A stretch of DNA of 64,000 bases from a virus. Taxonomy: Duplodnaviria > Heunggongvirae > Uroviricota > Caudoviricetes. Below the pieces are notes generated by a model. The model was not told the DNA's origin. It saw nothing but the letters and a program-made list of their open reading frames with translations, and searched no databases. Location of the stretch: IMG/VR virus record IMGVR_UViG_3300042889_001305. One strand, written 5' to 3'. Positions 4,537 to 20,578 of the stretch are shown in pieces. Both the position numbers and the translations under genes were made by a program. How positions within the stretch are numbered: position 1 is the stretch's first letter; each line of letters begins with the position of its first letter.

Positions 4537-5090
4537 TAGTATGTTCTCTCCTCAATTTGAACTTGTGAACGTTTTACCATCATACCAGTAGCAACAAGTT
4601 GCATACTTGCATCTGAGAATGTGTTTGTAGATTGGTCATATATTTTTGATGAACCACCTATTAACATAGTATCCATAACATTATTTATTTCATAGTAAAA
4701 TTCATCAAACAAAATAATGTCTCCAATTTCAGGATATCCATATTGTGTATTTTGTATTGCATCTGCCGGTATTTCGTTACCATTGATATCTCGTACCTTT
4801 GGTATCTCATGTGTTCTTAATCTTTCTTTATTAAAACGGAATTCTACATTTTGTTGTGTATCCGGTCCAAATTCATCATAATTTGAAGTAGTATTCTCCC
4901 TATCAACAATACACATTAAATTAGCAGGTGCATGGTATATTTTACCCAATGATTCACCATATAAATTAGTTTTTGATTCACCAACTGATATTTTGAATAG
5001 AGTAACAGTCGTTTCCACTACATAATCTACCACTTCTTCAGCGATAGTTTTTATGAATTCCAAATCTCTACTATGAAAAAACTTTGGCAT
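4536..5090 (-). CDS. gp14: neck/head-closure protein (T4 gp14-like)
   Basis: 184 aa; NLYGES and YPEIGDIILF motifs; lies between gp13-like and gp15-like genes. Confidence 0.6.
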   Translation of the reverse strand: MPKFFHSRDLEFIKTIAEEVVDYVVETTVTLFKISVGESKTNLYGESLGKIYHAPANLMCIVDRENTTSNYDEFGPDTQQNVEFRFNKERLRTHEIPKVRDINGNEIPADAIQNTQYGYPEIGDIILFDEFYYEINNVMDTMLIGGSSKIYDQSTNTFSDASMQLVATGMMVKRSQVQIEERTY

Positions 5091-5096
5091 ATGTTA

Positions 5097-6248
5097 TTAT
5101 CCTATGTATATTGCTAATGGAACTGATTTAATTATTTTTTGTTGTTGTTCAACCATATTGGATTCATTTTCCATTCTGGTCTTTTTACTAACCTCTTCTA
5201 AGTTTTCTCTCAATTGAGTTACTAATGATTCCTTTTCAGTTTGTGCTTCTGCTCTTAGTGCTGCACCATCCAATGAAACATCAGAACCAGGAATTGGTAT
5301 AGTAGAATATTTTTCTCTAATTGCACCTAATAATTCTTTAGCAAGTGCAAGTGTGTATTTTCTAATCCATTGTTTACCAACATCATTAATTTTTGAGTAA
5401 TCTTGAAACTGATATCCAACATTTGAATAATCACTTACAACATTTGGTGTTATTATAGTATTTCCTTCTCTGAAATCCTTTTTTACCATATACTCAAACC
5501 ATAATCTTTCGGTTTTAGTTGGTATTGGGAATATTTGTATTTTATTATTGACAATATTAAAACTAAATGCGGATTTACGGAATTGGTCATTGAATTCAAT
5601 TGCTTGAATTCTTAACATATCCTCATACATTGGCATTAGAATAAATTGTGCTGCGGGTGAGAACGAACCAAACCCAAATTCATCAATTAAGTTTAATGTA
5701 CCTTGTCCAGAAACTGAATAAGGGTCAAAGAAACGAGAGATTGCAGGAGTGGCTTCGTAAAATACTTTAGTTATATCAAGTCTTTCACCACTTTCATTTA
5801 CATCACCCCATAATTCTTGTAAATCATAACTTTGAGTACCTGCCGATGCAAGGATACTTCCTCTTTTAATATCTATTCTACCACCAACATTTGCTTGAGT
5901 ACCATAACCTTCGGCAATAGTAATTACATTGTTTAATTCACTTCCTAATACTGATTTGTTGGTAAAATTTGAACTTGTGGGTTGACCTTCAAGGGCACCC
6001 ATATTGTTTCGTATGTTAAATTGATTAACTTGTGCAGAATATTCACTTACTGCCTCTTCAAACACCGCAAAGAAACTACTTGATATCAATTCTACATCTA
6101 CAATTGGATAACCCAACCTTTGTGCACACCACGATGCAACTTTAGGGGCATCTAATTGAAAGTTTGAATCATTATCATATAATCCGAATGGGGTAGATGA
6201 ACCAGTAACGAAAGTTGCCGTACCTGTCCATACTCTTGATTGCGACAT
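5097..6248 (-). CDS. gp13: neck/head-tail adaptor protein (T4 gp13-like)
   Basis: LGYPIVDVEL and WIRKYTLALAKELLGAIREKY...LDG motifs; start moved to MSQSRVW (6248), which has AAGGAG 7 nt upstream. Confidence 0.75.
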   Translation of the reverse strand: MSQSRVWTGTATFVTGSSTPFGLYDNDSNFQLDAPKVASWCAQRLGYPIVDVELISSSFFAVFEEAVSEYSAQVNQFNIRNNMGALEGQPTSSNFTNKSVLGSELNNVITIAEGYGTQANVGGRIDIKRGSILASAGTQSYDLQELWGDVNESGERLDITKVFYEATPAISRFFDPYSVSGQGTLNLIDEFGFGSFSPAAQFILMPMYEDMLRIQAIEFNDQFRKSAFSFNIVNNKIQIFPIPTKTERLWFEYMVKKDFREGNTIITPNVVSDYSNVGYQFQDYSKINDVGKQWIRKYTLALAKELLGAIREKYSTIPIPGSDVSLDGAALRAEAQTEKESLVTQLRENLEEVSKKTRMENESNMVEQQQKIIKSVPLAIYIG

Positions 6249-6294
6249 ATTTATTCTCCTTAATACATTTATTCTTATATAAATATAAAATAAC

Positions 6295-6325
6295 AAAAAA
6301 GGGAGTGAATAAATCCACTCCCTTT
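6295..6325 (-). terminator. intrinsic terminator
   Basis: GGGAGTG-8nt-CACTCCC hairpin followed by T6 on the minus strand. Confidence 0.8.
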
Positions 6326-6347
6326 CAAATCTTATGTTTTATATCTA

Positions 6348-6719
6348 TTATCCTAAGTTAATTAGTTTATATTTTGTTGAGTATAATAGTTTAGCAATAT
6401 TATCTAATTCATTCTGAATCCAACTTACCTTTAATTTATCTTGCTGTCTTTCATTTTCTAAAAATTTAATAAGTTTATCAAAATATGCGATTATGTTTTC
6501 TTTTGATGAATCAGTATCTATTCCGTTTACTTGTTTATAAGTTATCAAACCATATTTACCTTGATATGCTTCAATTAAACCATCCAATAGGGGTATAAGT
6601 TCTGTATAATAGGTTTGTAATGCTAAATGTAAAGCAAGAGAACCTGGCCCTTTAACTCCTGTGTGGAATTGATGTGCTTGTGTTCTACTATGAAAAAAAA
6701 TTGAAGCTAATTGTTCCAT
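6348..6719 (-). CDS. ferritin/Dps-like four-helix phage protein (DUF5856-like)
   Basis: RTQAHQFH...HLALQTYY...LDGLIEAYQGKYG...LQ/IQNELD..AKLLYSTKYKL; start taken at MEQLAS. Confidence 0.65.
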   Translation of the reverse strand: MEQLASIFFHSRTQAHQFHTGVKGPGSLALHLALQTYYTELIPLLDGLIEAYQGKYGLITYKQVNGIDTDSSKENIIAYFDKLIKFLENERQQDKLKVSWIQNELDNIAKLLYSTKYKLINLG

Positions 6720-6766
6720 ATAATATATCTCTTTGATAATAAGTATATACAAAGGTTAATTTAAAT

Positions 6767-6791
6767 AAAAAAAAGGGAGAAATCTCCCTTT
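6767..6791 (-). terminator. intrinsic terminator closing the small-gene island
   Basis: AAAGGGAGA-AA-TCTCCCTTT hairpin plus T-run on the minus strand. Confidence 0.8.
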
Positions 6792-6822
6792 AACAAATGA
6801 ACAAACAAACAAAACTAATATC

Positions 6823-7089
6823 TTAATATTCAATCATTGAGACCGGTACGTTGTATGAAGCAAACCCACCTTTTACTCTCAAATTGGCTTTAGTTCGGTT
6901 GATTTTAACAACCTCTAACTCTCTACCCATTAATTTGGGGTGATTTACTTTAACCGTCATACCTACTTGCAATGACAATTTCTTTTCTAACGATTCTATG
7001 GTACGTTTTTGTTTAATCAGTTCAATAACCATTTGGTTAACGTTACGCAATTCTGCTACTGATAATTTTGATAATTCTGAATAATTCAT
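6823..7089 (-). CDS. small hypothetical protein with KOW/SH3-like C-terminal region
   Basis: 88 aa; LQVGMTVKVNHP...VVKINRTKANLRV. Confidence 0.65.
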   Translation of the reverse strand: MNYSELSKLSVAELRNVNQMVIELIKQKRTIESLEKKLSLQVGMTVKVNHPKLMGRELEVVKINRTKANLRVKGGFASYNVPVSMIEY

Positions 7090-7112
7090 GTCTTTTATGT
7101 TTTAAATTTTAA

Positions 7113-7325
7113 TTAATCTATTTCGCCAAATACTCTAATCCATTCCTCATTGGTAATTCCCGTCATAAGGAACTCTCTTTCGTCCATTGTTAAGTTTGGA
7201 ACGATGTTTTGTATCAATTCTTTTGAATTGTAACGATTCTCTACTCTTAATAACTCATCTTGAGTAACATTGATATTCAATGTATGTTCAATACCGGTTA
7301 AACTGCTGATTTTTGTAATATTCAT
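7113..7325 (-). CDS. small conserved phage hypothetical protein
   Basis: 70 aa; LIQNIVPNLTMDEREFLMTGIT; AAAATATAAAAT initiation region. Confidence 0.7.
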   Translation of the reverse strand: MNITKISSLTGIEHTLNINVTQDELLRVENRYNSKELIQNIVPNLTMDEREFLMTGITNEEWIRVFGEID

Positions 7326-7342
7326 ATTTTATATTTTAAGGG

Positions 7343-7585
7343 TTACCAACACAACATATCTCCTGCCTTATCCCAACTTCTAGCACCACTTTCGGTTGCT
7401 TTGTGAAGTGAGTTGTAATTCACATCTAAATTAGAATTACCAAATTGACGTTTAAGTTCTGATTTAAACTCTTTAAGGTTCTTAGCCCAAATATCGTTGA
7501 ACCCACCACTTACCCAATTGAATTGGTATCGGTACTCACCTTTTGAATTTTTTAACAATCTTTCATACTTTGCTCTATGTTTCAT
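7343..7585 (-). CDS. small hypothetical protein
   Basis: 80 aa; directly downstream of the promoter at 7628-7659. Confidence 0.7.
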   Translation of the reverse strand: MKHRAKYERLLKNSKGEYRYQFNWVSGGFNDIWAKNLKEFKSELKRQFGNSNLDVNYNSLHKATESGARSWDKAGDMLCW

Positions 7586-7627
7586 ACTTTTATATTTTAT
7601 AGTTTATTATCTCTTAATCTTATAAAG

Positions 7628-7659
7628 CTAATCTACAACTTTTTTTCCACATTTCCAAA
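7628..7659 (-). promoter_or_regulatory. Bacteroidota sigma70-type (-33/-7) promoter
   Basis: TTTG-N20-TAGATTAG; part of a ~60-bp block repeated at 8245-8305. Confidence 0.65.
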
Positions 7660-7676
7660 TATTTTAGGACTTATTT

Positions 7677-7985
7677 TTATAAATAAGTTGGACCATAATG
7701 TGACCATTTAGCAGTTCCATCAAATATGTTTCCTCTACTATGTTTAGCCGGGGCTCTCCAACTGGCGGGTTTCATTAAATCACCTTTCTTAACGGGGACA
7801 CCCATATGAAATCCATCAAACATCGAAACGAACGCCCATACGTGGGTTGAATCCATAATTTTCATAAATTTAGAACCCTTTTTAATCTTTAATGGGGTAT
7901 AATCACTATAATAATCACCTGATTCGTGTCTTTTTTTACGGTCTGCATCGACCTTTGCTAACCAAATTTCAAATTGTGTTTTCAT
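7677..7985 (-). CDS. conserved phage hypothetical protein
   Basis: 102 aa; KGDLMKPASWRAPAKHSRGNIF motif typical of small jumbo-phage proteins. Confidence 0.7.
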   Translation of the reverse strand: MKTQFEIWLAKVDADRKKRHESGDYYSDYTPLKIKKGSKFMKIMDSTHVWAFVSMFDGFHMGVPVKKGDLMKPASWRAPAKHSRGNIFDGTAKWSHYGPTYL

Positions 7986-7997
7986 ATATCTTATATT

Positions 7998-8228
7998 TTA
8001 TTTTAACCATAAATTGTAAACATAATCATACTTTACATTCAAAGTCTCTGCAAGTTTCTCAAACAACCTCTCTCTCACTATACTATCAGTAACACCAATG
8101 TATCGGTAAACATCCTCACCAACAATCAGTTTATTTAATAGGCCGGGAAACGTTGGGGTTTCATTCAATTCTAATCCCAAATCATCGGTTGGGAAGTTCT
8201 CTACATAATACTCTTTAATTGTGCTCAT
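7998..8228 (-). CDS. small hypothetical protein
   Basis: 76 aa; first gene after the promoter at 8270-8301. Confidence 0.7.
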   Translation of the reverse strand: MSTIKEYYVENFPTDDLGLELNETPTFPGLLNKLIVGEDVYRYIGVTDSIVRERLFEKLAETLNVKYDYVYNLWLK

Positions 8229-8269
8229 ATCTTTTATATTTTATTTGTTTATCTCCTAATCTTATAAAG

Positions 8270-8301
8270 CTAAACTACACATTATTTTCCACAATTCCAA
8301 A
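8270..8301 (-). promoter_or_regulatory. Bacteroidota sigma70-type (-33/-7) promoter
   Basis: TTTG-N20-TAGTTTAG. Confidence 0.65.
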
Positions 8302-8340
8302 TTATTTCCCATTTATTTTCACTTTTTTTGTAAAATTTTT

Positions 8341-8386
8341 CATTGATTATCAATGAGTTATAAAAGGTTGACTATCAATAAGTTAT
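8341..8386. repeat. two imperfect 20-bp direct repeats; the first overlaps a perfect palindrome
   Basis: attgattatcaatgagttat (8342-8361) and gttgactatcaataagttat (8367-8386); CATTGAT-T-ATCAATG palindrome at 8341-8355. Confidence 0.7.
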
Positions 8387-8392
8387 GGGCAT

Positions 8393-8424
8393 AAAAAAAG
8401 GGAGAATATTTCTATTCCCCCTTC
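8393..8424 (-). terminator. intrinsic terminator after the major capsid gene
   Basis: GGGGGAATAG-AAA-TATTCTCCC hairpin plus T7 on the minus strand. Confidence 0.8.
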
Positions 8425-8459
8425 TTTATTATCGAATCGTTAGTTTGATTCAGTTAAGA

Positions 8460-10100
8460 CTAGATTGAAGCCAAATCTTTAACATAAATCTTACCATAGA
8501 ATTCTGGACGGACCATCTTCTTAGCGTAACGAGTCATAACACCACGACGAGGCGTGAAGTTAGATGGGTCGTACACTAATGGAGTCATAATCAATGGTAC
8601 ATATGGAGCATAAACCGCACCAGTCTCAAGGAAGTTACTTCCTTTGAATCCTAATAAGATTTCGTTAGAAGTCATATAAGGGTTCTTGTAAACTGTGTAA
8701 CGAGATGCCAAAGAACCTACTTGAGATACACCAGCTGCGAAAGATGTAGCATCTTTATCCGCGTTAACTGAGAAACCAGGAATTGATTCTAAGATAGTAC
8801 AAACATCTGGAGATGCAACGATGAAGTTAGCACCACCACGAAGAGTTAATTGATGAATCTTGTTAGAAACTTTGTTCAATTTAACACCTAATGTTTGGAA
8901 CCATGTATTTTTTTGGTAAGCCAATGAATTGTTACCTGCTGACCAACTACCATCTTGAGAGTTAAACTCTTCACCAATTGTTGCTGACCAATATTCAGTT
9001 GTTAACGCGTTAGACTTTAACATATCTAAGATTTCTAAGTCAATCTCTAAAGAGATATACTCAGATAACATAGAAGTTAATTCAGCCTCAGCATCGATTG
9101 AATGGTATGCATTCAAATCTTGTGCCAATTCCGGTGTCCATACTGCTTTCAACTTACGAGTCTTAGCAACGATTGCCTCAGAACGTAATTCTAAGTCAAC
9201 TTCAGGAATACCTAAATCAGATGCTGGTTCAGAGATACCACCTGCTTGTGTACCATCTTCGAAATCACCACGTGTGTTTGAAGTTGGAGCTTTTGAATAC
9301 TGAACTTCTAAAGATTTTACAGCACTTGCAGATGTTACTTTACCATAGAATACGATATTTGAACCTGAAATTCTTGTTTGACCAGGATAGTATAAATCAG
9401 CTGCTGAAAAAGCAGGTGATTGAACTGCAAATGAACGTACTGCTTCTACATCTAAACTTGGTAATTCTGATGTTGCAGTAACGAATCTTTTAAGAGTACC
9501 AGCTGCTACTGAAGCAGATAAAGCTGCATCGTATCCAACTTCTTGCCAGTTTGCAGAACCAGTTGTTACAGCAGATGCTGCAATTGATTCACTAACATTG
9601 TTAACTGTGTATCCGTAACGTCCTTCACCATAAAGACCGTTTACAGCTGATTTAGTTCTACCATATTCAGAATCAAATGTTGAAGTACCATTACCACCGA
9701 AAAGTGATTTACCTGCGTTAGCAGCATTGAATGCTGGGTTACCATTTACACTTGTTCCGTATTTGAAATCTAGATAGAATATAAGACCTGAAGGTAAGTT
9801 CATTGGTTGAACTGAAACGAATTCTTTCGCTGCAATTTCACCAAAGATTCTTCTTACTAATGGTAAAGCTACGCCAGACCATTCTTCAGAACCTGCTGAA
9901 GTACCAGTTGCGGTAGCTTCATCCAATAATTGTTTCGCTTGGTTCTCTAATAGAACTGCGATTTGAGATTGCTCTCTTTCTTTTAAACCTTCTAAAAGAC
10001 CAGTTGCTTCCCATTTGCTTTTCAATTGACGTGTTTCAGCCAACATTACCGCTTGTGGGTTCTTGCCTTCCATAAGTTTAGATAAATTAAAATTTGCCAT
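8460..10100 (-). CDS. gp23: major capsid protein (T4 gp23 family)
   Basis: VSVQPMNLPSGLIFYL, TRKLKAVWTPELAQDLNAYHSIDAEAEL, YAPYVPL and GVMTRY motifs; 546 aa. Confidence 0.97.
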   Translation of the reverse strand: MANFNLSKLMEGKNPQAVMLAETRQLKSKWEATGLLEGLKEREQSQIAVLLENQAKQLLDEATATGTSAGSEEWSGVALPLVRRIFGEIAAKEFVSVQPMNLPSGLIFYLDFKYGTSVNGNPAFNAANAGKSLFGGNGTSTFDSEYGRTKSAVNGLYGEGRYGYTVNNVSESIAASAVTTGSANWQEVGYDAALSASVAAGTLKRFVTATSELPSLDVEAVRSFAVQSPAFSAADLYYPGQTRISGSNIVFYGKVTSASAVKSLEVQYSKAPTSNTRGDFEDGTQAGGISEPASDLGIPEVDLELRSEAIVAKTRKLKAVWTPELAQDLNAYHSIDAEAELTSMLSEYISLEIDLEILDMLKSNALTTEYWSATIGEEFNSQDGSWSAGNNSLAYQKNTWFQTLGVKLNKVSNKIHQLTLRGGANFIVASPDVCTILESIPGFSVNADKDATSFAAGVSQVGSLASRYTVYKNPYMTSNEILLGFKGSNFLETGAVYAPYVPLIMTPLVYDPSNFTPRRGVMTRYAKKMVRPEFYGKIYVKDLASI

Positions 10101-10134
10101 TTTATTTTTTCTCCTTTGGGGTTGTTTTTTTTGT

Positions 10135-11250
10135 TTATTTAATATTTGCTAATTTCTTGAAACGTTCTGCCATAGAATTGCTTTCTGCTATAATTGTTTT
10201 TGGAGCAGTTGAAGCAACTTTTTTCGATGCGAATGATTCATTCATTTTAGTTTGTTGTTTTACCTTCTTAGCAGTTCCACCAATTTTCATTGATTCAGCT
10301 AATGTAGAGAAAACTAATTTTACTTCTCTAACGTTTTGAGTTCTATCTAAAGTTTCAACAACTTTATGTTTTTGCTCATTAGTTAAATCGTAAGAACGGA
10401 ATAATTTGTTAGTATACAATAATTTTGCATTTAACAAGTTTACTTCGTTGATTGTAGATTTCAAAGATTTGATAACTTTGTATGCTTCTTCTAAATCAGC
10501 TTGTAATTCAGCTTTTTCTTCATCAGCACCTTCTTTCATTTCCTCTTCTTCACCTTCCATTTTTTCGTCATCACCATAACCCATTTCACGTAAGATTTCG
10601 TCTAAGTCGATTTCTTCGTCTTCTTCGGATACTGGTTCTGCTTTTTCGTCACCTTCTGCAAAAGCTTCTGGTTTTTCTTCCTCTTCAACATACTCAGGTT
10701 TTTCAGATTCGAATTTTGCTTCGCCTTTTTCATCACCTTCTTCTGTCATTGGGTCGTTTTTACCATCTAACTCTTGTTCTAGTTCTCTGATAATTTCTTC
10801 TAAATCGAAATCATCTTCATCCATAGGTTCTGCTTTTTCTTCTTCAGCGATTGCGCCAGTTGGGTCGTCGTTAACACCATCACCATTTTCATCTTCATCA
10901 GATTCTGCGATTGTGTTGTTTTCGTCTTCTTTACCTGGTTCTGCTGTTTCTTTGTCAGTATCACCTAATTCTGTGTGTGCATCAGTTGAGATACCCTGTG
11001 GGTCTTTGTTCTCAACATCGCCAAATTTTGTGCTGTCTGCATCCGATGTGTCATCTGCACCATACTCTTCAGTTACATCTGCTGTCTCATCTTCTTCACC
11101 TTCCATTTCGGCTGTGATTTTCTTAGATAAGATAGATTGTAAACGTGGAGTAAAAGCTTCCTCTAATGCGATTTTAGCATTAGCGATTGCAGTTTCACGT
11201 ACGGCTTTAGCATCAGCAATTGCATCTTTCAACAATTTTGAATTTGCCAT
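10135..11250 (-). CDS. prohead scaffold/core protein
   Basis: Very acidic 371-aa protein immediately upstream of the capsid gene; LKDAIADAKAVRETA, NLLNAKLLY and RFKKLANI segments; many [ILVM]xE sites. Confidence 0.8.
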   Translation of the reverse strand: MANSKLLKDAIADAKAVRETAIANAKIALEEAFTPRLQSILSKKITAEMEGEEDETADVTEEYGADDTSDADSTKFGDVENKDPQGISTDAHTELGDTDKETAEPGKEDENNTIAESDEDENGDGVNDDPTGAIAEEEKAEPMDEDDFDLEEIIRELEQELDGKNDPMTEEGDEKGEAKFESEKPEYVEEEEKPEAFAEGDEKAEPVSEEDEEIDLDEILREMGYGDDEKMEGEEEEMKEGADEEKAELQADLEEAYKVIKSLKSTINEVNLLNAKLLYTNKLFRSYDLTNEQKHKVVETLDRTQNVREVKLVFSTLAESMKIGGTAKKVKQQTKMNESFASKKVASTAPKTIIAESNSMAERFKKLANIK

Positions 11251-11400
11251 TTGTTTTCTTCCTTTACTTTTTTTTCTGAAAATATTGAGTGATTTTCAAT
11301 CGAATTGATTAAGTTAGTTGTTCGGTGACCTCACATAAGGGTGGGTATTCATTAACCAACGGGATAAAATTAAACCTACATTGAGTAGGTTATTATAGAA

Positions 11401-11408
11401 ATAAATAT
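11401..11408 (-). promoter_or_regulatory. putative late promoter ATATTTAT (head operon)
   Basis: Same octamer is intergenic and sense-oriented at 6279, 11789, 18749, 20561, 27863, 48645, 49746 and 58400 (minus) and 58427 (plus). Confidence 0.55.
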
Positions 11409-11448
11409 ATAAATGTTTACGAAACCGCAAAATTTATGTAAAATATTT

Positions 11449-11751
11449 TTAATCTCTTGAGGTGTCTTTATCTGATTGAGGTGTTTTTTTACTAACTTTC
11501 TTTTTCTTTTTAGTAAAAAACCTAATCGTTCTATCACCATCTGCAATCTTACTGAGAGCAACTCTTTTTTGCTCTTCTCTGATTGCCTTTTGTTTTTGTA
11601 ATCTTCTTTTTGTAGTAGGTTTAACGTATTCCTTTCTTTCTCTTAGTTCTAAGAGGTGTCCAGATTCCATAACCTTTTTTTTGAATTTTTTTAAAGCCTT
11701 TGCAATGTCTCCATTACGAACTTCGACTGTAATCCTTGCTAATCCGCTCAT
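11449..11751 (-). CDS. rpsU: phage-encoded 30S ribosomal protein bS21 with basic C-terminal extension
   Basis: VEVRNGDIAKALKKFKKKV...LELRERKEYVKPTTKRR matches the bS21 signature. Confidence 0.9.
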   Translation of the reverse strand: MSGLARITVEVRNGDIAKALKKFKKKVMESGHLLELRERKEYVKPTTKRRLQKQKAIREEQKRVALSKIADGDRTIRFFTKKKKKVSKKTPQSDKDTSRD

Positions 11752-11808
11752 TAATTGTATTTAAATTGTGTTTGTAACTTATTTGGTAATAAATATGTCT
11801 TTTATAAA

Positions 11809-13368
11809 TTATTTGCTTAAAAGGAACAATGCTTCTTCAGCTTCTTGTTGATTTTTAATCTTTGGGTCTTTATACATATCTACTTTATATCCTCTTAACG
11901 CATTTGATAAGAATATCATATACTTAGGATGTCCTAATTTTTCTTCTAATGTAGAAAGTGAATCATAGAATGATTGTTCATTTCCTTTATTCATTTTTTC
12001 TGCTGCTTTGAATTCTTCTTTATGTTTATCAATATATGATGCAGTTGAATCTTTATATCCATATGCTGCTTCTTTATTTATTTTTTTACCTGCAGCCACT
12101 GCATCTTTATATGCATCCGAATTTTTATGTGCCGGTGCTTCGCCTCTAGCTTTTTTAGCTCGGATATTTGCCCAAAGACCAGGTTTTTCTTCTTTTATAG
12201 ATTCTTTGAATAGATTTGTAATTATTCCACCTGAAACGTAATCAGGTAACATTTTTTCTAAATCTTTATGGGATACTTTACCCATTTTTTCAACTTTATC
12301 TGCGAAAGCCTTAGTTGATTGATTTTTTCTCATTTTATTTGCAATGAGTTTTGCATCAACTTTTTTATCAGAAACTTCTTCGTTTACGGATTCTGTTTCT
12401 AATTCATTTGCAGGTACTTCAATTGAATAGTATTGGCCAATATCTACGATATAAAATGGAGAACCGGGTGTTTTACCATCAAAACGAACAATTTTACCAG
12501 ATTTACCGCCACGAAGTTTTACTTTTGTTCCTGGTTTTAAAATTGGTTTTGCTTCTTCGTTTACTTTACCACAATCAACACAATTAGTTTTAGATTCTTC
12601 TAATGGCCATTGTTTCAACCACTTTAACCACTCTTTAGTATTCCAATCGTTTCTTTGTCTTGCATCTACTTTCCAGTATTTTGCAAATACATCTTTTAAT
12701 TCTGATTTGTAATTAGCAAAACCGGGTATTTTAGATGTAATGTTTACAAATTCATTTGCACTAGCGTAATGTTCCATTGAGTTAGATAACATATCTACTA
12801 ATGCTAACATTGCTTTATCATTACCTAACGCTTCGTTTACTGATTCATTCTTTGGAACACAATTAGGAACTTGAGCACCACCTTTACCTGGTTTCATTCC
12901 TATCATCTCATATCCTTTCCAACATGGGTCTTTCTCCCCACCTTGTAATTTACCATCTTCTCTCAATCCCAAACGTTCTCTCATTTGTTCTTCAGAAATT
13001 TCACCAATTTTATAGTAACGAGATAGGATATGTCCCATATCTTCGTATAATCCATGTAATCTTTGGTCTAAGTTCTTTGCTTCTATTGCAACTTGGTCGA
13101 ATGATTTACCTAATTTGGTTAATTCATTCATATTACGTTTAACAGTATGTGCATCAAACCAATCATCTGCTTCGTTTACCGCCAATTCTCTAGCTGCATC
13201 GGTAATGCCACCTAAAGTTTCTGCTATCTCAGTAATATCTGATTTTCTATCCATCATTTCTTGATACTTGTTGTATGTAGAAACGATTTCTAAGAAATGT
13301 TTTTTTACTTCGTTAGAAAATCTTTTTGGTTCTTCACCTTCTTTAACTATCTTTGATAAACGTATCAT
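11809..13368 (-). CDS. modular head-associated (internal) polyprotein
   Basis: N-terminus MIRLSKIVKE; modules (DPCWKGY...VPNCV, KOW-like, GLWANIRAKK) separated by ESVNE/ESIKE. Confidence 0.6.
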   Translation of the reverse strand: MIRLSKIVKEGEEPKRFSNEVKKHFLEIVSTYNKYQEMMDRKSDITEIAETLGGITDAARELAVNEADDWFDAHTVKRNMNELTKLGKSFDQVAIEAKNLDQRLHGLYEDMGHILSRYYKIGEISEEQMRERLGLREDGKLQGGEKDPCWKGYEMIGMKPGKGGAQVPNCVPKNESVNEALGNDKAMLALVDMLSNSMEHYASANEFVNITSKIPGFANYKSELKDVFAKYWKVDARQRNDWNTKEWLKWLKQWPLEESKTNCVDCGKVNEEAKPILKPGTKVKLRGGKSGKIVRFDGKTPGSPFYIVDIGQYYSIEVPANELETESVNEEVSDKKVDAKLIANKMRKNQSTKAFADKVEKMGKVSHKDLEKMLPDYVSGGIITNLFKESIKEEKPGLWANIRAKKARGEAPAHKNSDAYKDAVAAGKKINKEAAYGYKDSTASYIDKHKEEFKAAEKMNKGNEQSFYDSLSTLEEKLGHPKYMIFLSNALRGYKVDMYKDPKIKNQQEAEEALFLLSK

Positions 13369-13378
13369 TTATTATCTC

Positions 13379-14650
13379 CTATTTTACTAATTTTGCTAAT
13401 TTTATTGATTCTGATTTAAATGGATTAAATAATCCTCTATTATTTACTTCCTTTTCAGTAGATGGTGCAACTTTTGCATTTTGTTGGTGTTTGTTCTTTA
13501 TTGGATTATATTTTTCCAATTCATCAACATTAACATTACCATCTGCATCGGTCTTAACCTCACCCGATTTATCATCACCCATTCTTACAATACCAACTGT
13601 CTTAGTTCTTTTGTTATAAACTAAATCATCTTTTTTGAATTTACCTTCCTTTACCATTTTAGTTAAAGAAATTCTACCTTCATTCTTTTTAACTGGCTCA
13701 TATCCCCTGTCAACTTTATCTTTTTTCTTAGCATCAGAGTCTTGTACACCCGGTTCATTTGGTTCATTATCATCAAAATCTATTGTATCCTTTTCAGCAG
13801 GAGTTCCCATTTGTTTACCATACATAGATGTAACATGATGTTGATTAAAATCTTGTTCTGCTTCACTATCTTCAGTATTAGAAAGACCTGTATTAAAATG
13901 TTTAGGTTCGTCTTCATTAACCATTTTGGTCAAAGAAATTCTACCTTCATTCTTCATATATGGTTTATTATCAAATACTGATTGAATTAAATCCGCTTCT
14001 TTATGAAATCCATTCATCCTTAATGTAAATGCTATACCATCTGCTGCATCGACTCCGTCCCATCCTGATGCTTGTGATACATCCGTACCATAATCATCAA
14101 TCTCACCAGTTCCGTTCATATAAACCGAACCATCTGCCGAATTCTTACGAATATCATCCATTTTCTCTTTATACTTAGGGTCTTTGATTGATGGGTATTC
14201 AGGTTTCTTTGCAAACTCAGGTTTCCCTTCAATTGCTGCCACTAATTCTCTTGCTTCACTATGGAAGTTTGAATCAGTTAGTGCAGAAACTGCTGCTTGA
14301 AACATTGCTTCTTTATATTTTTCATTACCCAACTTTTGTGGAGTAATTCCTGATTTCTCAGCTAATTTCTTAGCATCTTTATTTACTTTTGGATTACCTG
14401 GTCTTTTCTTTTTAGGTTCTGATGTTGGTGTATCAGCTTTAGGTTCTTCTGCAGGAGTATTAAATATATTTGCAGTTGGTGTAGATGCCTTTTTAGAAGT
14501 ATCACCCCCTTTACCATCTGCTTTTGAGTGAGTTCCTGCTTTGATTGCAGAATCTCTACTATCCTTTGATTTGAACACCGATGTTTTACCGGTCTTCTTA
14601 TTAGTAGCAGTAAACGTTTCTTCGTTAAGTAAATTATTTAATTTAATCAT
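13379..14650 (-). CDS. modular head-associated (internal) polyprotein
   Basis: N-terminus MIKLNNLLNE; internal KNEGRISLTKMV(N/K)E repeated twice (near-identical DNA around 13654 and 13921); ends ESIKLAKLVK. Confidence 0.6.
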   Translation of the reverse strand: MIKLNNLLNEETFTATNKKTGKTSVFKSKDSRDSAIKAGTHSKADGKGGDTSKKASTPTANIFNTPAEEPKADTPTSEPKKKRPGNPKVNKDAKKLAEKSGITPQKLGNEKYKEAMFQAAVSALTDSNFHSEARELVAAIEGKPEFAKKPEYPSIKDPKYKEKMDDIRKNSADGSVYMNGTGEIDDYGTDVSQASGWDGVDAADGIAFTLRMNGFHKEADLIQSVFDNKPYMKNEGRISLTKMVNEDEPKHFNTGLSNTEDSEAEQDFNQHHVTSMYGKQMGTPAEKDTIDFDDNEPNEPGVQDSDAKKKDKVDRGYEPVKKNEGRISLTKMVKEGKFKKDDLVYNKRTKTVGIVRMGDDKSGEVKTDADGNVNVDELEKYNPIKNKHQQNAKVAPSTEKEVNNRGLFNPFKSESIKLAKLVK

Positions 14651-14669
14651 TAGTTGATGTTCCTATATT

Positions 14670-15110
14670 TTAAAATCCTATTGAGACCGTTTTGTTGTCA
14701 AATTCTATCCAACGTATTTTTAGTGAAATTAATAATTTCAAATCACTAACATCCATTCTCCAATTTTTTTCTGCCATTTCAATATCAGCGATATTACCAT
14801 GAATACCATCCCAAATTGTAATAACTTTACCATTAAAGAATTTTAAGAATTGTTGTACTTGTTTTTGTTTAGCAGCATCTAATTCTTTTAATTCAATTTC
14901 CGATGCTTCTTTAATTACCCTTTTAGTTTCAGTTAATACAGTTTTATGTGTATAAAGGTCTAACTTACCATCGGCTTTAATCTTAACCTCATAGTTAGTC
15001 TTACGAATATCGTTATGACCACCCTTAAAAGGTGTATCACCAACTTCTTTCTTAATACTACCCATTTCTATTTTGTTATCTCTTAGATAATCTTGTATTG
15101 AAAATGCCAT
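14670..15110 (-). CDS. head-module hypothetical protein
   Basis: 146 aa; AAAGGA upstream; contains VLTE/VIKE sites. Confidence 0.6.
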   Translation of the reverse strand: MAFSIQDYLRDNKIEMGSIKKEVGDTPFKGGHNDIRKTNYEVKIKADGKLDLYTHKTVLTETKRVIKEASEIELKELDAAKQKQVQQFLKFFNGKVITIWDGIHGNIADIEMAEKNWRMDVSDLKLLISLKIRWIEFDNKTVSIGF

Positions 15111-15120
15111 ATTGTATCCT

Positions 15121-15720
15121 TTATGCTAATTCAGTAATGATTTCTCTCATAAGGTCTTGTGCCTTACAATACTCACCACAAACTATAGCTTGTTCTTTTA
15201 ATTGTCTATTTACTGATTCGTTCATCGTAACCGGTGTCATAAATGCACCATGTGTAGATGGGTTAGAAACAAAATCCCAACCAATCAGTTCAAAATCATC
15301 ACCCACTTTTACTTTACCTTCGCCAATGTTAACTACCGAACCCATACCACGAGAGGAAATACCCAAAAGGATACCTGCTCTTAATAATTCTTTTAAGATG
15401 TTACCGGATGGAGTTGGTAAAATTTCTACTGTCCCACAAAGGTCATCACCTTCCCAATGAATTTCTTTTACGTTATGTGAAACATTCTTTAAATTGATAA
15501 TACCAGAATCTGGGTGGTCTAATTCCCCTAATGCACGTCTTTCTTTAATAAGAACTTCGTATTTCTTTGCTTCACGCATTAGGATTTCTTTAGGGTATAT
15601 ACGACCATTTTGGTTTTCTGCAACCGCTCTTTGAAGAATACCTTTAACTAAGGTTCTACCACTTGAATCTTCATTCAATTTTCCTTCAAATAATGTTGTT
15701 TCTATTAATAAATTTTTCAT
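15121..15720 (-). CDS. gp21: prohead core protease (T4 gp21 family)
   Basis: NQNGRIYP, RALGELDHP, GISSRGMGS and DFVSNPS motifs; start taken at MKNLLIE, coupled to the upstream stop codon (TAATG). Confidence 0.95.
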   Translation of the reverse strand: MKNLLIETTLFEGKLNEDSSGRTLVKGILQRAVAENQNGRIYPKEILMREAKKYEVLIKERRALGELDHPDSGIINLKNVSHNVKEIHWEGDDLCGTVEILPTPSGNILKELLRAGILLGISSRGMGSVVNIGEGKVKVGDDFELIGWDFVSNPSTHGAFMTPVTMNESVNRQLKEQAIVCGEYCKAQDLMREIITELA

Positions 15721-15896
15721 TATGCTCCCCAAGTTTTTCTCTTTTTAAAGAGGTCAAAAAATATTGCAGATACTTCTCTACGAATGATATCACGAATAAG
15801 TTTTTCATCCTCAGTTGTGATTTCTTCTTTGACGATACCCCATTTTACTTTGGTTATCTCTTCGTTAATGATATCTAACAATCTTTTTCGTGTCAT
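15720..15896 (-). CDS. 58-aa hypothetical protein missing from the ORF track (MTRKRLLDIINEEITKVKWG...KRKTWGA)
   Basis: Hand-translated; fills the gap exactly and its TAA overlaps the gp21 ATG. Confidence 0.75.
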   Translation of the reverse strand: MTRKRLLDIINEEITKVKWGIVKEEITTEDEKLIRDIIRREVSAIFFDLFKKRKTWGA

Positions 15897-15898
15897 TG

Positions 15899-16357
15899 TT
15901 ATTTTTTCTTTACTGATTCTACTATATGTAGAACAAAATCACCATTACCATTTGATTTTACTACTTTATATTCCTTTTTCTTACCACCGGAATTAATAGT
16001 AATTTTTTCACCCACTTTAAGTGCGTTTTTATCACCAGTTTTTAATATAGCAGGTCCATCGTAATCTTCGTTTACTTTTTTACCAGCTCTTAAATCTGCT
16101 AAATCATCACTACCGATATCACCATCTTTATCAACATCTAATTTCTTTTGACCGCCCACTAATTCTTCATTCTTCTCGCCCTTACCATTCCATGCTGCAT
16201 CAATTTTATCAAAGAATGCTTTCTTTTCTTCATCTGACATAGATGGAATTGATTTTCCAGCTTTATCTAATGCTTTTTGAAAGAATTCCTGATATTCATT
16301 TTCTTCAGTCATTACTCCTTTGATGATTTCTTTTAATCTTGTACGTGATATTTTCAT
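15899..16357 (-). CDS. head-associated protein with EF-hand/dockerin-like loop
   Basis: 152 aa; LDVDKDGDIGSDDLADLR; N-terminus MKISRTRLKEIIKGVMTE. Confidence 0.6.
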   Translation of the reverse strand: MKISRTRLKEIIKGVMTEENEYQEFFQKALDKAGKSIPSMSDEEKKAFFDKIDAAWNGKGEKNEELVGGQKKLDVDKDGDIGSDDLADLRAGKKVNEDYDGPAILKTGDKNALKVGEKITINSGGKKKEYKVVKSNGNGDFVLHIVESVKKK

Positions 16358-17856
16358 TATTTTTCTATCTCCTGTATTGTTTTCGCTATGTTGATTAATC
16401 GTTCCTTTATCTTATAAATATGTCCGTGCGTTCTTTTCCAAAATGTATCGGAACTCAATTCATTCATAGTCTTAATTTGATTATACCAACGGAAAAAAGT
16501 TTCAACCTCTTTTAATTGATATTTTAATTCTCTCAAACCAGTCGCTAACTTCTTATTAGCATGCATTGATTCATCATTTTTTAATTCTAACCAACGATTT
16601 ACCGGTCTTTGAATTCGTTTTCCCTCTGATAAACTCTCATCCATATGTTCCAAACCATATTTCATAATAGTTTTATCATCTAACATCTTACCATTAAGAG
16701 TAAACATACGTTTACCTTTATAATAAACTGACCAATTACCTTGTGGGGTTGCATCGACAGTGATATTCTTTAAATCCTTTATACTTCTATCATTAACTTG
16801 AATAGCATCTAAGAATTTTTCTGCTTTAGGGTCTAATGCTTCGTTTACTGATTCATTTGTTGATACAAATAATCTTACTGAAAGAATTACATCTTTATCT
16901 ATATTTAAACTTCTTACTTTATTTTTTTCTAAATCGTAAGCCGGATTGATTGTATTTGCTCTTGCAATTACACCATCTTTAATAAAATGTGGCTGTAATC
17001 CAGAGTAGTTATCATCTCTAAACATAAAAACATCTTTAGGAGAATCCTTAGATATTTTAATTATTTTCTTTAAACCTTCTTTACCAATAAAGCATCCACC
17101 TTCACATTTACTTCCACCATAAGTTTTACCTTTTTGTAATGATGCTTCGTTTACTGATTCAAATAATGCTCTGTCTCCACTAATATCCTGTTTATCAAAA
17201 TATGCTATTTTCTTTTTACCTTTTTCTATTTGATATACCTTCCATCCTTTGTTGGTTGGTTCAATTAGTTCTATCTCAATATTTGGATTATGTTTATGAG
17301 TAAGTTTATCTCCTGATTTATTTGCTTCGTTTACTGATTCTTTTAGTTTACTTACATAATCTGCTACAACATCATTAACTGTCTTTTGTATCAATTGTAA
17401 GTATTTTGGGTCATCTTCGGTTCGTACTCTTACAGCGGTTTTACCCTGTTGTGTTAATTTTAATGCTACCTTTCCATTAGCATGTGTTAAATTATAATGC
17501 CTAACATCTAATGTATAGTTTTTAAGTTTTTCTGCCATTTTTAAACCAACAGATACATCTGCATGACCTAATTTTTGTTGTGGTAAACTCGATGCGGGGG
17601 TTGTACTAATAATATAATCCGGTGATTTGAATTTTGCTTCATTTACCGATTCATCAATATTATTAATATCATTATTTACTAATGTATAACCGAATTGTGT
17701 TGCAGTTTTTTTTCTTTTTTTATCAGAATTTTTACCAGAAAAGGCATGAGGAGTATCATAGCCATCAACATTACCTGTCACATTGGCTTCATCTAATTCA
17801 TCTTCGACTTCCTTAATAAGTTCGTCTATAAAAGATTTAATATTTTTTTCTGACAT
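16357..17856 (-). CDS. modular head-associated polyprotein with four ESVNEA linkers
   Basis: 499 aa; LDE-ANVTGNVDGYDTPHAF N-terminal module; 4x ESVNEA plus ESLSE. Confidence 0.65.
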   Translation of the reverse strand: MSEKNIKSFIDELIKEVEDELDEANVTGNVDGYDTPHAFSGKNSDKKRKKTATQFGYTLVNNDINNIDESVNEAKFKSPDYIISTTPASSLPQQKLGHADVSVGLKMAEKLKNYTLDVRHYNLTHANGKVALKLTQQGKTAVRVRTEDDPKYLQLIQKTVNDVVADYVSKLKESVNEANKSGDKLTHKHNPNIEIELIEPTNKGWKVYQIEKGKKKIAYFDKQDISGDRALFESVNEASLQKGKTYGGSKCEGGCFIGKEGLKKIIKISKDSPKDVFMFRDDNYSGLQPHFIKDGVIARANTINPAYDLEKNKVRSLNIDKDVILSVRLFVSTNESVNEALDPKAEKFLDAIQVNDRSIKDLKNITVDATPQGNWSVYYKGKRMFTLNGKMLDDKTIMKYGLEHMDESLSEGKRIQRPVNRWLELKNDESMHANKKLATGLRELKYQLKEVETFFRWYNQIKTMNELSSDTFWKRTHGHIYKIKERLINIAKTIQEIEK

Positions 17857-20505: not shown

Positions 20506-20578
20506 ATTTTATTTTTTATATTAAAATTATATTATTTAATAGTGCATCTTATTATACACTATAAATATGTTGAATTTT

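What the first reader, a model, noticed from the sequence alone, without database searches (positions are those of the whole stretch)
11449..11751. Phage bS21 appears to lack the anti-SD-clamping tyrosine and has a long basic tail
Seen: KPTTKRRLQKQKAIREEQ, plus a ~35-aa extension with KKKKK. From memory, F. johnsoniae bS21 reads KPSVVKRAQIQKAAY54IQ, where Tyr54 helps sequester the anti-SD; an ungapped alignment places Arg at that position here, as in SD-using bacteria. Established: bS21 genes beside capsid genes are known in large freshwater Bacteroidota phages. The link to the SD pattern in this window is my inference.
Basis: partly seen in the sequence, partly recalled or inferred. Interest (0 to 1): 0.75.

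Follow-up and report, generated by a model that had tools for sequence, protein, structure and literature searches.

The report
Phage ribosomal protein bS21 without clamp tyrosine
A large lake phage carries its own copy of ribosomal protein bS21 that has arginine where Flavobacterium-type bacteria have the tyrosine that hides the ribosome's Shine-Dalgarno reader. Only the phage's head genes carry Shine-Dalgarno sites, so the phage may retune host ribosomes late in infection, but relatives show that this link is not strict.

Summary
Window 11449-11751 (-) encodes a 100-aa bS21 (Pfam E 4e-15). Its Arg58 aligns without gaps to Tyr54 of F. johnsoniae bS21. Helix 3 has no aromatic residue, and a disordered Lys-rich tail follows.

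Arg is invariant in 28 of 28 representatives of a large clade of lake phages. This clade differs from the published bS21 phages (Chen 2022), which all have an aromatic residue there and carry the gene on the opposite strand.

- For: Y54A ribosomes translate SD-led mRNA about 3-fold better (McNutt 2023). In the window, SD cores precede 13 of 21 head-block genes against 1 of 35 others. The SD sites on capsid, scaffold and protease genes are conserved across the clade and absent from the bS21-less Flavobacterium phage immuto. A second phage lineage with Bacteroidia-like bS21 also has Arg.
- Against: sister phages with Arg-type bS21 have no SD-led genes. Some Tyr-type phages have SD-led head genes. 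Arg is also the normal residue in Bacteroidota outside class Bacteroidia. The basic tail occurs in Tyr-type phage bS21 too. The host is not proven.

This scan had already flagged the same feature on other genomes. I rate it a new variant of a known kind and a testable hypothesis.

The parts
11449..11751 (-). Phage bS21 gene, 100 aa including stop
   Evidence: ORF list and translation. Pfam PF01165 E 4e-15. PDB bS21 chains at E 1e-6 to 1e-5.
11578..11580 (-). Codon AGA = Arg58, the position equivalent to Tyr54 of F. johnsoniae bS21
   Evidence: Ungapped register from K-P. MAFFT column. Invariant in 28/28 representatives.
11452..11547 (-). C-terminal extension, residues 69-100, Lys-rich (KKKKK at residues 81-85), predicted disordered from residue 71
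   Evidence: Composition. AlphaFold2 pLDDT falls to 60-49 with no secondary structure after residue 70. Cellular Bacteroidota tails are about 10 aa with net charge +1.
11789..11795 (-). TATTTAT motif about 38-44 nt upstream of the bS21 start; candidate phage late promoter. The bS21 leader has no SD.
   Evidence: Sequence of the intergenic regions. The motif is conserved upstream of bS21 in related loci. It also precedes the portal, tail and adaptor genes here and structural genes in phage immuto. Promoter function is inferred.
10111..10116 (-). AAGGAG Shine-Dalgarno-like site, 10 nt before the major capsid gene start
   Evidence: dG -8.9 kcal/mol. Conserved as AAGGAG, TAGGAG or AAGGAA in all loci of the 32-row clade despite diverged leaders.
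11258..11264 (-). AAGGAAG SD-like site before the scaffold gene
8460..10100 (-). Major capsid protein (T4 gp23 family)
   Evidence: Pfam Gp23 E 9e-77.
10135..11250 (-). Acidic scaffold protein; gene lies directly downstream of bS21
   Evidence: Position and composition. Same slot as the protein upstream of the capsid gene in phage immuto.
15121..15720 (-). Prohead protease, preceded by GGGGAG
   Evidence: PHROG 207 E 1.4e-48. SD.
2679..18706 (-). Head and neck gene block in which 13 of 21 genes carry an SD core 4-14 nt before the start
   Evidence: 13/21 against 1/35 in the rest of the window, Fisher p 1.2e-6, background 9%.
18775..22162 (-). Portal and large terminase genes, without SD
   Evidence: PHROG 213 and PHROG 2. 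Leaders.

Best explanation
The gene encodes a late-expressed phage paralogue of ribosomal protein bS21. It most likely enters 30S subunits of a Bacteroidota host, probably of the Flavobacteriales type, in place of the loosely bound host bS21.

Its helix 3 has Arg58 where Bacteroidia have Tyr54, the residue that stacks on A1534 and steers the 16S 3' tail into the bS18/bS6 pocket. Helix 3 is also about twice as basic, and a disordered Lys-rich tail follows.

The expected result is a ribosome that binds the phage protein well but holds the anti-SD less tightly, as in the Y54A mutant. Moderate Shine-Dalgarno sites would then become usable.

In this phage clade the mass-produced head proteins (capsid, scaffold, protease and head cargo) have acquired such sites. 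Early genes and bS21 itself have none. This would make head-protein synthesis depend on, and be boosted by, the phage bS21.

Shown here: the protein's identity, the Arg at that position, the tail, the SD distribution and its conservation, and the presence of the gene in RNA libraries. Inferred: the host, incorporation into ribosomes, release of the anti-SD, and the causal link to the SD sites.
For: Identity and residue.

Experimental precedent (PMC9976891): F. johnsoniae Y54A gave 70% more GFP from a strong-SD reporter in vivo and 3-fold more rpsU'-gfp in vitro, with SD-less templates unchanged. Loss of the C-terminal helix releases the anti-SD (PMC13000457).

SD pattern: 13/21 head-block genes against 1/35 others. 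The sites on capsid, scaffold and protease genes are kept through diverged leaders in every lineage of a 32-row clade, while portal and terminase have none. In complete relative G007, SD is at background in early regions and clustered at the head module.

Comparison with relatives: the cultured Flavobacterium phage immuto has the same head-gene order but no bS21 and no SD on any head gene; its genome-wide figure of 2-5% is below background. In a wider sample of SD-poor relatives, strong SD (dG <= -7) on capsid or scaffold genes occurred only where bS21 sits in the head module. That was 3 of 11 such loci plus the whole window clade, against 0 of about 20 without it (my tally; not corrected for relatedness).

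A second lineage: the bS21 of L261-L279 is clearly closer to Tyr-type cellular bS21 than to Arg-type (about 40-45% against 25-37% mean identity, position 58 excluded), yet carries Arg, or His in L268.

Cellular Bacteroidota: Arg-type genomes show SD cores upstream of 10-42% of genes (n=8) and Tyr-type 0-9% (n=6), Mann-Whitney p 0.014.

Host hints:
- A C-terminal T9SS sorting domain in sister phage G002: Pfam 40 bits, TIGR04183 26.8 bits against a cut-off of 23.
- TAnnTTTG motifs show a 2-fold sense-strand bias in intergenic DNA.
- G007 lipoproteins with C-SKED-type signals.
- SD-poor early genes.

Expression: the gene has its own TATTTAT motif, shared with virion genes. The bS21 stretch lies in contigs of four lake metatranscriptome runs, one of which spans scaffold plus bS21.
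Against: Residue 54 and SD use are not coupled across relatives.
- G002 and G003 (complete, Arg-type, sister to the window clade at 100/100 support) have bS21 outside the head module, no SD on the capsid gene and genome-wide SD at or below background.
- L262 and L267 have Arg-type bS21 in the head module and no SD on capsid or scaffold genes.
- L073/74, L308, L311 and L331 have Tyr together with SD-led head genes.
- LR756508 has a non-aromatic bS21 in the head module and no SD.

Arg is the native residue in 22 of the 30 most similar cellular Bacteroidota bS21, and 15 of those 22 still have an extended SD on rpsU. This hints that Arg-type ribosomes may also occlude the anti-SD. Arg can stack on adenine (general knowledge).

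Weak AGGA motifs precede capsid and scaffold genes in some bS21-less relatives. The tail is not specific to Arg-type proteins.

The host is not identified. The clade is equally related to a phage deposited as infecting Microcystis, which has the same bS21 slot, and to the Flavobacterium phage. Incorporation into ribosomes is untested.
Confidence: 0.4

Rival explanations
1. The phage bS21 does replace host bS21, but Arg58 is functionally equivalent or neutral. It still contacts A1534 and the anti-SD stays hidden. The benefit lies elsewhere: out-competing or replenishing host bS21, keeping ribosomes working late in infection, countering a host block on translation, or selecting phage leaders through the diverged N-terminal helix and the basic tail. 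The SD-like purine motifs on head genes act independently of residue 58.
For: Arg-type cellular bS21 coexists with an extended SD on rpsU, the hallmark of anti-SD occlusion and autoregulation, in 15 of 22 genomes. G002, G003, L262 and L267 carry Arg-type bS21 with no SD-led genes. Tyr-type phages also have SD-led head genes. Long basic tails are shared by Arg-, Tyr- and Phe-type phage bS21, averaging 23-26 aa and net +4 to +6 against 10 aa and +1 in cells. Chen 2022 proposed substitution without a change in anti-SD handling.
Against: Y54A alone changes selectivity. Cellular Arg-type genomes show more SD use than Tyr-type. Strong SD sites in otherwise SD-poor phages were seen only together with a head-module bS21. 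Arg is invariant, not merely tolerated.
Confidence: 0.27
2. Host mimicry. The host belongs to a Bacteroidota lineage outside class Bacteroidia, or to another bacterium, whose own bS21 has Arg at this position and whose ribosomes use SD moderately. The phage protein simply resembles its host's, and SD on highly expressed late genes is ordinary.
For: 22 of the 30 closest cellular bS21 in a 121-genome phylum sample have the KAIRR-type Arg, several in genomes of 30-39% GC. These genomes use SD in 10-42% of genes. The window protein is equally similar to Arg-type (38%) and Tyr-type (40%) cellular bS21. Phage Mel-JY01, deposited as a Microcystis phage, has the same head-module bS21 with a basic residue and SD mainly on structural genes.
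Against: Early-gene regions of G007 and the non-head part of the window are at or below background for SD, unlike Arg-type cellular genomes. Sister phage G002 is SD-depleted like Tyr-type genomes and phage immuto. The sequence is found in many lake-water metagenomes and metatranscriptomes; from general knowledge, Bacteroidia dominate that phylum in such water. The L261-L279 phage bS21 are Bacteroidia-like yet have Arg.
Confidence: 0.2
3. The protein does not act in the ribosome. It could be a basic RNA- or DNA-binding protein recruited from bS21, for example packaged in the head with the neighbouring cargo proteins or binding phage mRNA leaders.
For: The gene sits between head-cargo polyprotein genes and the scaffold gene. 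It has a long disordered Lys-rich tail. Chen 2022 raised possible encapsidation.
Against: The bS21 core is conserved across all three helices, including rRNA-contacting basic residues, with 19 invariant positions. Phage HTVC008M bS21 enters E. coli ribosomes (Mizuno 2019, as cited in PMC9976891).
Confidence: 0.06

Closest known systems
bS21 of the freshwater Bacteroidetes myoviruses of Chen et al. 2022 (ISME Commun, PMC9723584)
   Same: A phage-encoded bS21 inside the terminase-portal-protease-capsid block of large lake phages. Transcribed with structural genes. Phage-specific C-terminal region. Proposed to substitute into host ribosomes.
   Different: There the gene is always on the strand opposite to its neighbours, and all 61 proteins have Tyr, His or Phe at position 54. 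Here the gene is co-directional with its own promoter-like motif, and position 54 is an invariant Arg. That paper made no link to SD sites.
F. johnsoniae bS21 and its Y54A and deltaC mutants (Jha 2020 PMC7797042; McNutt 2023 PMC9976891; PMC13000457)
   Same: Same protein family and register. The phage protein is in effect a natural non-aromatic variant at Tyr54. The mutants show that this residue and helix 3 control access to the anti-SD.
   Different: The host protein is 64 aa with a weakly basic helix 3: 4 K/R in P41-K59, against 8 K/R in the phage's equivalent segment. The phage protein is 100 aa with a 32-aa tail. Arg is not Ala, so the effect on stacking is unknown.
Arg-type (KAIRR) bS21 of cellular Bacteroidota outside class Bacteroidia; the distinct Chlorobia signature is noted in PMC9976891
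   Same: Arg at the Tyr54 column followed by R-x-x-Q-[KR]. Found in genomes with moderate SD use.
   Different: The cellular proteins are 63-66 aa with no tail, form their own clade (93/90 support) apart from the phage clade, and have an extended SD on rpsU. The phage gene has none.
RpsU of Microcystis phage Mel-JY01 (PP395634) and the bS21 of uncultured phage LR756508
   Same: Same slot between the prohead protease and the scaffold and capsid genes. Capsid protein 53-55% identical. Non-aromatic residue at position 54.
   Different: Mel-JY01 is deposited with a cyanobacterial host and carries SD-like motifs widely. LR756508 has no SD at all. Both bS21 proteins are too diverged for tblastn to find at E 1e-3.
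Francisella tularensis bS21 paralogues (PMC9578407) and Pelagibacter phage HTVC008M bS21 (Mizuno 2019, PMC6375957)
   Same: Precedents that swapping bS21 variants changes which mRNAs a ribosome initiates on, and that a phage bS21 can enter a bacterial ribosome.
   Different: Different hosts, which do not sequester the anti-SD.

Membership tests
Ribosomal protein bS21 (Pfam PF01165) | Sequence match to the family profile above the curated threshold | tested here: met
   55.7 bits against a cut-off of 27, residues 8-59 covering profile positions 1-53 of 55. 24 PDB bS21 chains at E <= 0.0015.
Ribosomal protein bS21 (Pfam PF01165) | Short helical fold of two N-terminal helices and a C-terminal helix that begins after the K-P motif | tested here: inconclusive
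   AlphaFold2 predicts helices 16-30, 32-39 and 48-70, which fits. Foldseek against the PDB gave no significant match (best E 5.4, mitochondrial bS21 chains), as expected for an extended protein that is shaped by rRNA.
Ribosomal protein bS21 (Pfam PF01165) | Is a component of the 30S subunit | not testable with these tools
   Needs ribosome purification from infected or expressing cells.
Bacteroidia-type, anti-SD-sequestering bS21 | Signature Tyr54 (aromatic residue stacking on A1534) | tested here: not met
   Arg58 occupies the column. Helix 3 has no aromatic residue.
Bacteroidia-type, anti-SD-sequestering bS21 | C-terminal portion less basic than in other bacteria; total length about 62-66 aa | tested here: not met
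   8 K/R against 4 in the equivalent 19 residues. 100 aa long, with a tail of net charge +9.
Bacteroidia-type, anti-SD-sequestering bS21 | Gene preceded by an extended SD (autoregulation) | tested here: not met
   The bS21 leader has no SD, dG +2.3. Cellular rpsU genes show GAGGAGGTGA-type sites.
Chen et al. 2022 bS21 phage clades | bS21 inside the conserved terminase-portal-protease-capsid block | tested here: met
Chen et al. 2022 bS21 phage clades | bS21 encoded on the strand opposite to the structural genes | tested here: not met
   All genes here are on the minus strand. The opposite-strand layout is seen in locus L065.
Chen et al. 2022 bS21 phage clades | Aromatic residue at position 54 | tested here: not met
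   Arg, invariant in the clade.
Phage of a Bacteroidota host | Host-specific markers or direct linkage to a host | tested here: inconclusive
   A T9SS sorting domain in sister phage G002 only. TAnnTTTG strand bias. SD-poor early genes. LES-like lipoproteins in G007. Proteome similarity to the Flavobacterium and Microcystis phages is equal. No CRISPR or isolate evidence.

The most novel reading that the evidence does not exclude
[quoted passage not shown] Early genes and bS21 itself are read by unmodified ribosomes. Once the Tyr-less, tail-bearing phage bS21 has replaced the host protein, the anti-SD is freed and the SD-led capsid, scaffold, protease and cargo mRNAs take over the ribosomes. This would be a virus-made specialised ribosome with a defined molecular switch, at residue 54 and/or the tail.
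Probability: 0.3. Interest if true: 0.85.

Novelty: new variant of a known kind. Interest (0 to 1): 0.6.

Why it matters
Phage-encoded bS21 is the most common viral ribosomal protein, yet its function has not been shown. Bacteroidia ribosomes hide their anti-SD through bS21 Tyr54, and removing that tyrosine is known to re-open SD recognition.

This finding adds a large, abundant and transcribed family of lake-phage bS21 that lacks the tyrosine. The only published survey reported an aromatic residue in every case. The family sits beside head genes that are the only SD-led genes in otherwise SD-free genomes.

That gives a concrete hypothesis for how a virus could make specialised ribosomes and time its late protein burst. 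It can be tested with existing F. johnsoniae strains and reporters.

The counter-examples found here matter as much: Arg without SD, Tyr with SD, and Arg in cellular lineages. They show that residue 54 alone cannot be read as a switch.

Tried and rejected
- tblastn of the protein against 50,697 phage records found nothing at E 1e-3, although Mel-JY01 and LR756508 do encode bS21. The query is short and low in complexity, so that blank was uninformative.
- The window's own assembly is not held, so I used relatives G001, G002, G003 and G007-G010.
- Foldseek against the PDB gave no significant hit.
- The look-up of encoding contigs for a close homologue returned only unnamed metagenome scaffolds and no host information.
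- Proteome comparison with phages immuto and Mel-JY01 was a tie at about 40% identity each, so it cannot assign a host.
- The genome-contig scan returned almost only Flavobacteriales and Saprospiraceae bS21. I discount this as host or origin evidence, because the scan looks for two phage-derived peptide patterns that Arg-type cellular proteins lack. An unbiased phylum sample gave mostly Arg-type top hits.
- The bS21 tree (79 columns) could not resolve whether the phage clade derives from Tyr-type or Arg-type cellular proteins.
- I first considered a simple rule, 'Arg goes with SD-led head genes, Tyr with none'. reject it.
- I then considered 'bS21 in the head module goes with SD-led head genes'. 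It holds in the first sample but has exceptions in the wider one: L262, L267 and LR756508.
- Metatranscriptome evidence comes from assembled contigs only, so it shows presence in RNA libraries, not transcript levels, ends or strand.
- Complex prediction was not used, because it cannot model rRNA.
- The supplementary files of Chen 2022 contain no sequences or IMG/VR ids to cross-check.

Full report
**What is there**

Window 11449-11751 on the minus strand is a 100-aa ORF. It matches Pfam Ribosomal_S21 at E 4e-15, 55.7 bits against a cut-off of 27, and 24 solved bS21 chains. It lies in a co-directional T4-like head module. In transcription order the module runs:
- large terminase (20579-22162)
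- portal (18775-20505)
- three unnamed genes
- prohead protease (15121-15720)
- three head-cargo-type genes
- bS21
- an acidic scaffold protein (10135-11250)
- gp23-type major capsid protein (8460-10100)

The window is 31% G+C and has no tRNA gene.

**Checking the observation**

In the window protein K44-P45 is followed 13 residues later by R58 (codon AGA at 11578-11580). A HMMER alignment to another Bacteroidota chain pairs KAIR with KAIY. Two MAFFT alignments with 35 cellular proteins place R58 in the Tyr column without gaps. No aromatic residue occurs between Y42 and F78.

Jha et al. describe Tyr54 as stacking on A1534 where the 16S 3' tail turns towards the platform. They also describe the Bacteroidetes C-terminal part as unusually non-basic (PMC7797042). 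The phage protein has 8 K/R where F. johnsoniae has 4 over the equivalent 19 residues. It continues for 42 residues after R58, against 10 after Y54, and this stretch includes KKKKK at 81-85. The tail 62-100 holds 14 K/R and 5 D/E. AlphaFold2 with a 28-sequence alignment predicts helices 16-30, 32-39 and 48-70 and a disordered tail.

**How widespread it is**

A search of 5.8 billion proteins gave 93 homologues, of which 91 could be typed at this position: 69 have Arg, 12 Tyr and 6 Phe. In 28 diverse Arg-type representatives, A56 and R58 are invariant. IMG/VR holds more than 60 Arg-type loci, several on complete 270-289 kb genomes.

The only published survey of such phages states that all 61 phage bS21 carry Tyr, His or Phe at this position, and that the gene always lies on the strand opposite its neighbours (PMC9723584). 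The window's gene is co-directional. So this is a different and apparently larger group that the paper does not describe. Two literature searches found no paper on Tyr-less phage bS21 or on a link to SD sites. Earlier notes of this scan had flagged the same feature on other genomes.

**The Shine-Dalgarno pattern in the window and its clade**

I used a simple longest-ORF gene call. A GGAG, GAGG or AGGA core lies in positions -20 to -4 of 13 of 21 genes in the block 2679-18706, against 1 of 35 elsewhere in the window. Fisher p is 1.2e-6 and the background is 9% of 17-nt windows. Spacing to the start codon is 4-14 nt, and predicted pairing energies are -4 to -9 kcal/mol. bS21, portal and terminase have none.

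In every IMG/VR locus of the clade, the capsid gene (AAGGAG, TAGGAG or AAGGAA), the scaffold gene (AAGGAAG(G)) and the protease gene (GGGGAG or AAAGGA) keep such a site although the surrounding leader has diverged. Portal and terminase never have one.

In the complete relative G007 (288,673 bp, terminal repeats, 26 tRNAs), early regions are at background and the signal clusters at the head module and a few other late regions.

The cultured Flavobacterium phage immuto has the same gene order from terminase to capsid but no bS21. It has no SD on any head gene, and only 2-5% of its genes show an SD core, which is below background.

**Why a freed anti-SD is plausible**

In F. johnsoniae, Y54A raised a strong-SD reporter by 70% in vivo. 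Y54A ribosomes made 3-fold more protein from rpsU'-gfp in vitro, with no change on an SD-less template (PMC9976891). Loss of the C-terminal helix releases the 3' tail from the platform (PMC13000457). Wild-type ribosomes need SD pairing stronger than -13 kcal/mol, so the phage's ordinary-strength sites should work only on ribosomes with a loosened anti-SD.

I also compared 14 cellular genomes of the phylum. Eight with Arg at this position have GGAG or GAGG upstream of 10-42% of genes. Six with Tyr have 0-9%, which is at or below their controls. Mann-Whitney p is 0.014, not corrected for relatedness.

**What speaks against a strict link**

- *Sister phages without SD.* A capsid-protein tree puts the complete genomes G003 and G002 as successive sisters of the 32-row SD-bearing clade, with 100/100 support for the 34-row group. 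Both encode Arg-type bS21, but elsewhere in the genome and without the TATTTAT motif. Their capsid genes have no SD, and G002 as a whole is at or below background.
- *Wider capsid family.* In a sample of 79 loci at 54-76% capsid identity, position 54 is R, Y, H, L, A or V and does not follow SD use. L262 and L267 have Arg-type bS21 in the module and no SD on capsid or scaffold genes. L305, L316, L322 and L329 have Arg in SD-rich loci. L308, L311 and L331, and also L073/74, have Tyr with SD-led head genes. Some relatives without bS21 carry weak AGGA motifs on capsid and scaffold genes.
- *What survives.* In SD-poor loci, strong sites (dG <= -7) on capsid or scaffold genes occurred only where bS21 sits in the head module. 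That was 3 of 11 such loci plus the whole window clade, against 0 of about 20 without it. A head-module bS21 therefore looks necessary but not sufficient, and residue 54 is not the discriminator. This tally is mine and is not corrected for relatedness.
- *Arg in cellular lineages.* In a 121-genome sample of the phylum, 22 of the 30 bS21 most similar to the phage protein have Arg (KAIRR type, GC 30-66%), presumably from classes outside Bacteroidia. Fifteen of these 22 still have a GAGGAGGTGA-type extended SD on rpsU. McNutt et al. read that as a sign of anti-SD occlusion and autoregulation, so Arg may be compatible with some sequestration.
- *The tail.* It is not specific to Arg-type proteins. 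After position 54, phage Arg-type proteins average 26 residues with net charge +4, phage Tyr/Phe-type 23 residues with +5 to +6, and cellular proteins 10 residues with +1.

**Origin of the protein**

The window protein is equally similar to Arg-type (38%) and Tyr-type (40%) cellular bS21. A 79-column tree leaves the phage clade unresolved relative to both. It nests Tyr/Phe-type phage proteins among Arg-type ones, which implies at least two switches within phages.

A second phage lineage is informative. The head-module bS21 of L261, L262, L267, L268, L270, L278 and L279 begin MLI(I/V).V... like Bacteroidia proteins. With position 58 excluded, they are about 40-45% identical to Tyr-type cellular bS21 against 25-37% to Arg-type. 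Yet they carry Arg, or His in L268. Losing the tyrosine on a Bacteroidia-like backbone therefore recurs in phages.

**Host**

Evidence for a Bacteroidota host:
- Sister phage G002 encodes a 527-aa protein ending in a T9SS type A sorting domain: Pfam 40 bits, TIGR04183 26.8 bits against a cut-off of 23.
- TAnnTTTG occurs twice as often on the sense strand as on the antisense strand in intergenic DNA of G007 and G002.
- G007 encodes lipoproteins with C-SKED or C-SKDE after the lipobox. From memory, this resembles the Bacteroidota surface-lipoprotein export signal.
- Early genes lack SD.

What remains unresolved is the class within the phylum. It is also not excluded that the host lies outside the phylum. 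The clade shares as many genes, at the same identity, with Microcystis phage Mel-JY01 as with phage immuto. Mel-JY01 has a bS21 with a basic residue at position 54 in the same slot, and SD mostly on structural genes.

The stretch 8400-13400 occurs in 14 DNA runs with at least half of the sampled words, all lake-water or freshwater metagenomes, and in 6 metatranscriptome runs.

**Expression**

bS21 has its own TATTTAT motif about 40 nt upstream. The same motif precedes the portal, tail, adaptor and scaffold genes here and structural genes in phage immuto. I infer a late promoter.

Contigs from four lake metatranscriptome runs cover the gene. One contig of 1879 nt with 19 differences spans scaffold plus bS21. 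Contigs over the capsid, scaffold and bS21 block carry much higher k-mer depth than those over neighbouring genes in all four runs. Because these are assembled contigs, I take this only as evidence that the gene is present in RNA libraries together with the capsid block.

**Verdict**

The mechanistic reading is that a Tyr-less phage bS21 unlocks the anti-SD for SD-led head genes. It is coherent, backed by published mutant data, and fits this clade. Relatives show that neither Arg nor a head-module bS21 is sufficient for SD-led genes, and that Tyr does not exclude them.

I put the reprogramming reading at about 0.4. The alternatives are 0.27 for 'replacement without a change at the anti-SD', 0.2 for 'mimicry of an Arg-type host', and a small remainder. 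It is a new variant of a known kind, and it is directly testable.

Noticed in passing
window 11789-11795, 18750-18770, 18540-18560, 22905-22915, 6275-6285 (approximate, minus strand); also L099 (phage immuto): A TATTTAT(A) motif lies 30-60 nt upstream of bS21, portal, the 289-aa gene, the 1650-aa and 1856-aa tail genes and the head-tail adaptor. In G007 intergenic DNA it occurs 40 times on the sense strand against 5 on the antisense strand. It recurs as CTATTTATAA before structural genes of Flavobacterium phage immuto. It is a likely family-specific late promoter.
   Followed up: partly
window 6823-8228 (-): Five small ORFs of 70-102 aa between the capsid and neck genes each start right after a near-identical AAAATATAAAAG/A leader. 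Two of them share a longer upstream repeat (...TGTGGAAAA...GTAGTTTAGCTTTATAAGATTA...). This looks like a tandem family of small genes with a copied regulatory cassette and no SD.
   Followed up: no
window 11251-11448 (-): A 198-nt untranslated gap separates the bS21 stop from the scaffold start. It opens with another TATTTAT and holds a short inverted repeat (CCTAC...GTAGG), so scaffold and capsid may be read from a long structured leader.
   Followed up: no
L175-L204 and L205-L252 (cellular Bacteroidota genomes): Cellular Bacteroidota bS21 fall into a Tyr type and an Arg type (KAIRR). Arg-type genomes use SD in 10-42% of genes and Tyr-type in 0-9%. Both types often carry an extended GAGGAGGTGA on rpsU.
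   Followed up: partly
L261, L262, L267, L268, L270, L278, L279 (IMG/VR): A second phage lineage (capsid protein 60-67% identical) has a head-module bS21 that looks Bacteroidia-like (MLIV.VK.GNIE.ALK...) but has Arg, or His in L268, at the Tyr position.
   Followed up: partly
L159 (PP395634, Microcystis phage Mel-JY01) 9152-9379: A phage deposited as infecting a cyanobacterium has the same protease...bS21...scaffold-capsid module and 34% G+C. Either this capsid family spans phyla or that host assignment deserves a second look.
   Followed up: partly
L133 (G002:4231-7461) 1495-3075 (-): A 527-aa phage protein ends in a T9SS type A sorting domain, with a weak match to a T9SS-dependent M36 metallopeptidase. 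It would be a phage protein exported by the host's type IX secretion system.
   Followed up: partly
G007 21301-21373 (L105): ARAGORN reports a tRNA of undetermined type with a four-base anticodon (gtga) within the 26-tRNA cluster of the complete relative G007.
   Followed up: no
L026 and L030 (IMG/VR), upstream of bS21: In two sub-lineages the bS21 gene itself is preceded by AAAGGAG or TAGGAG only 1-2 nt before the called ATG. Either the start is mis-called or these copies have an unusually placed SD.
   Followed up: no
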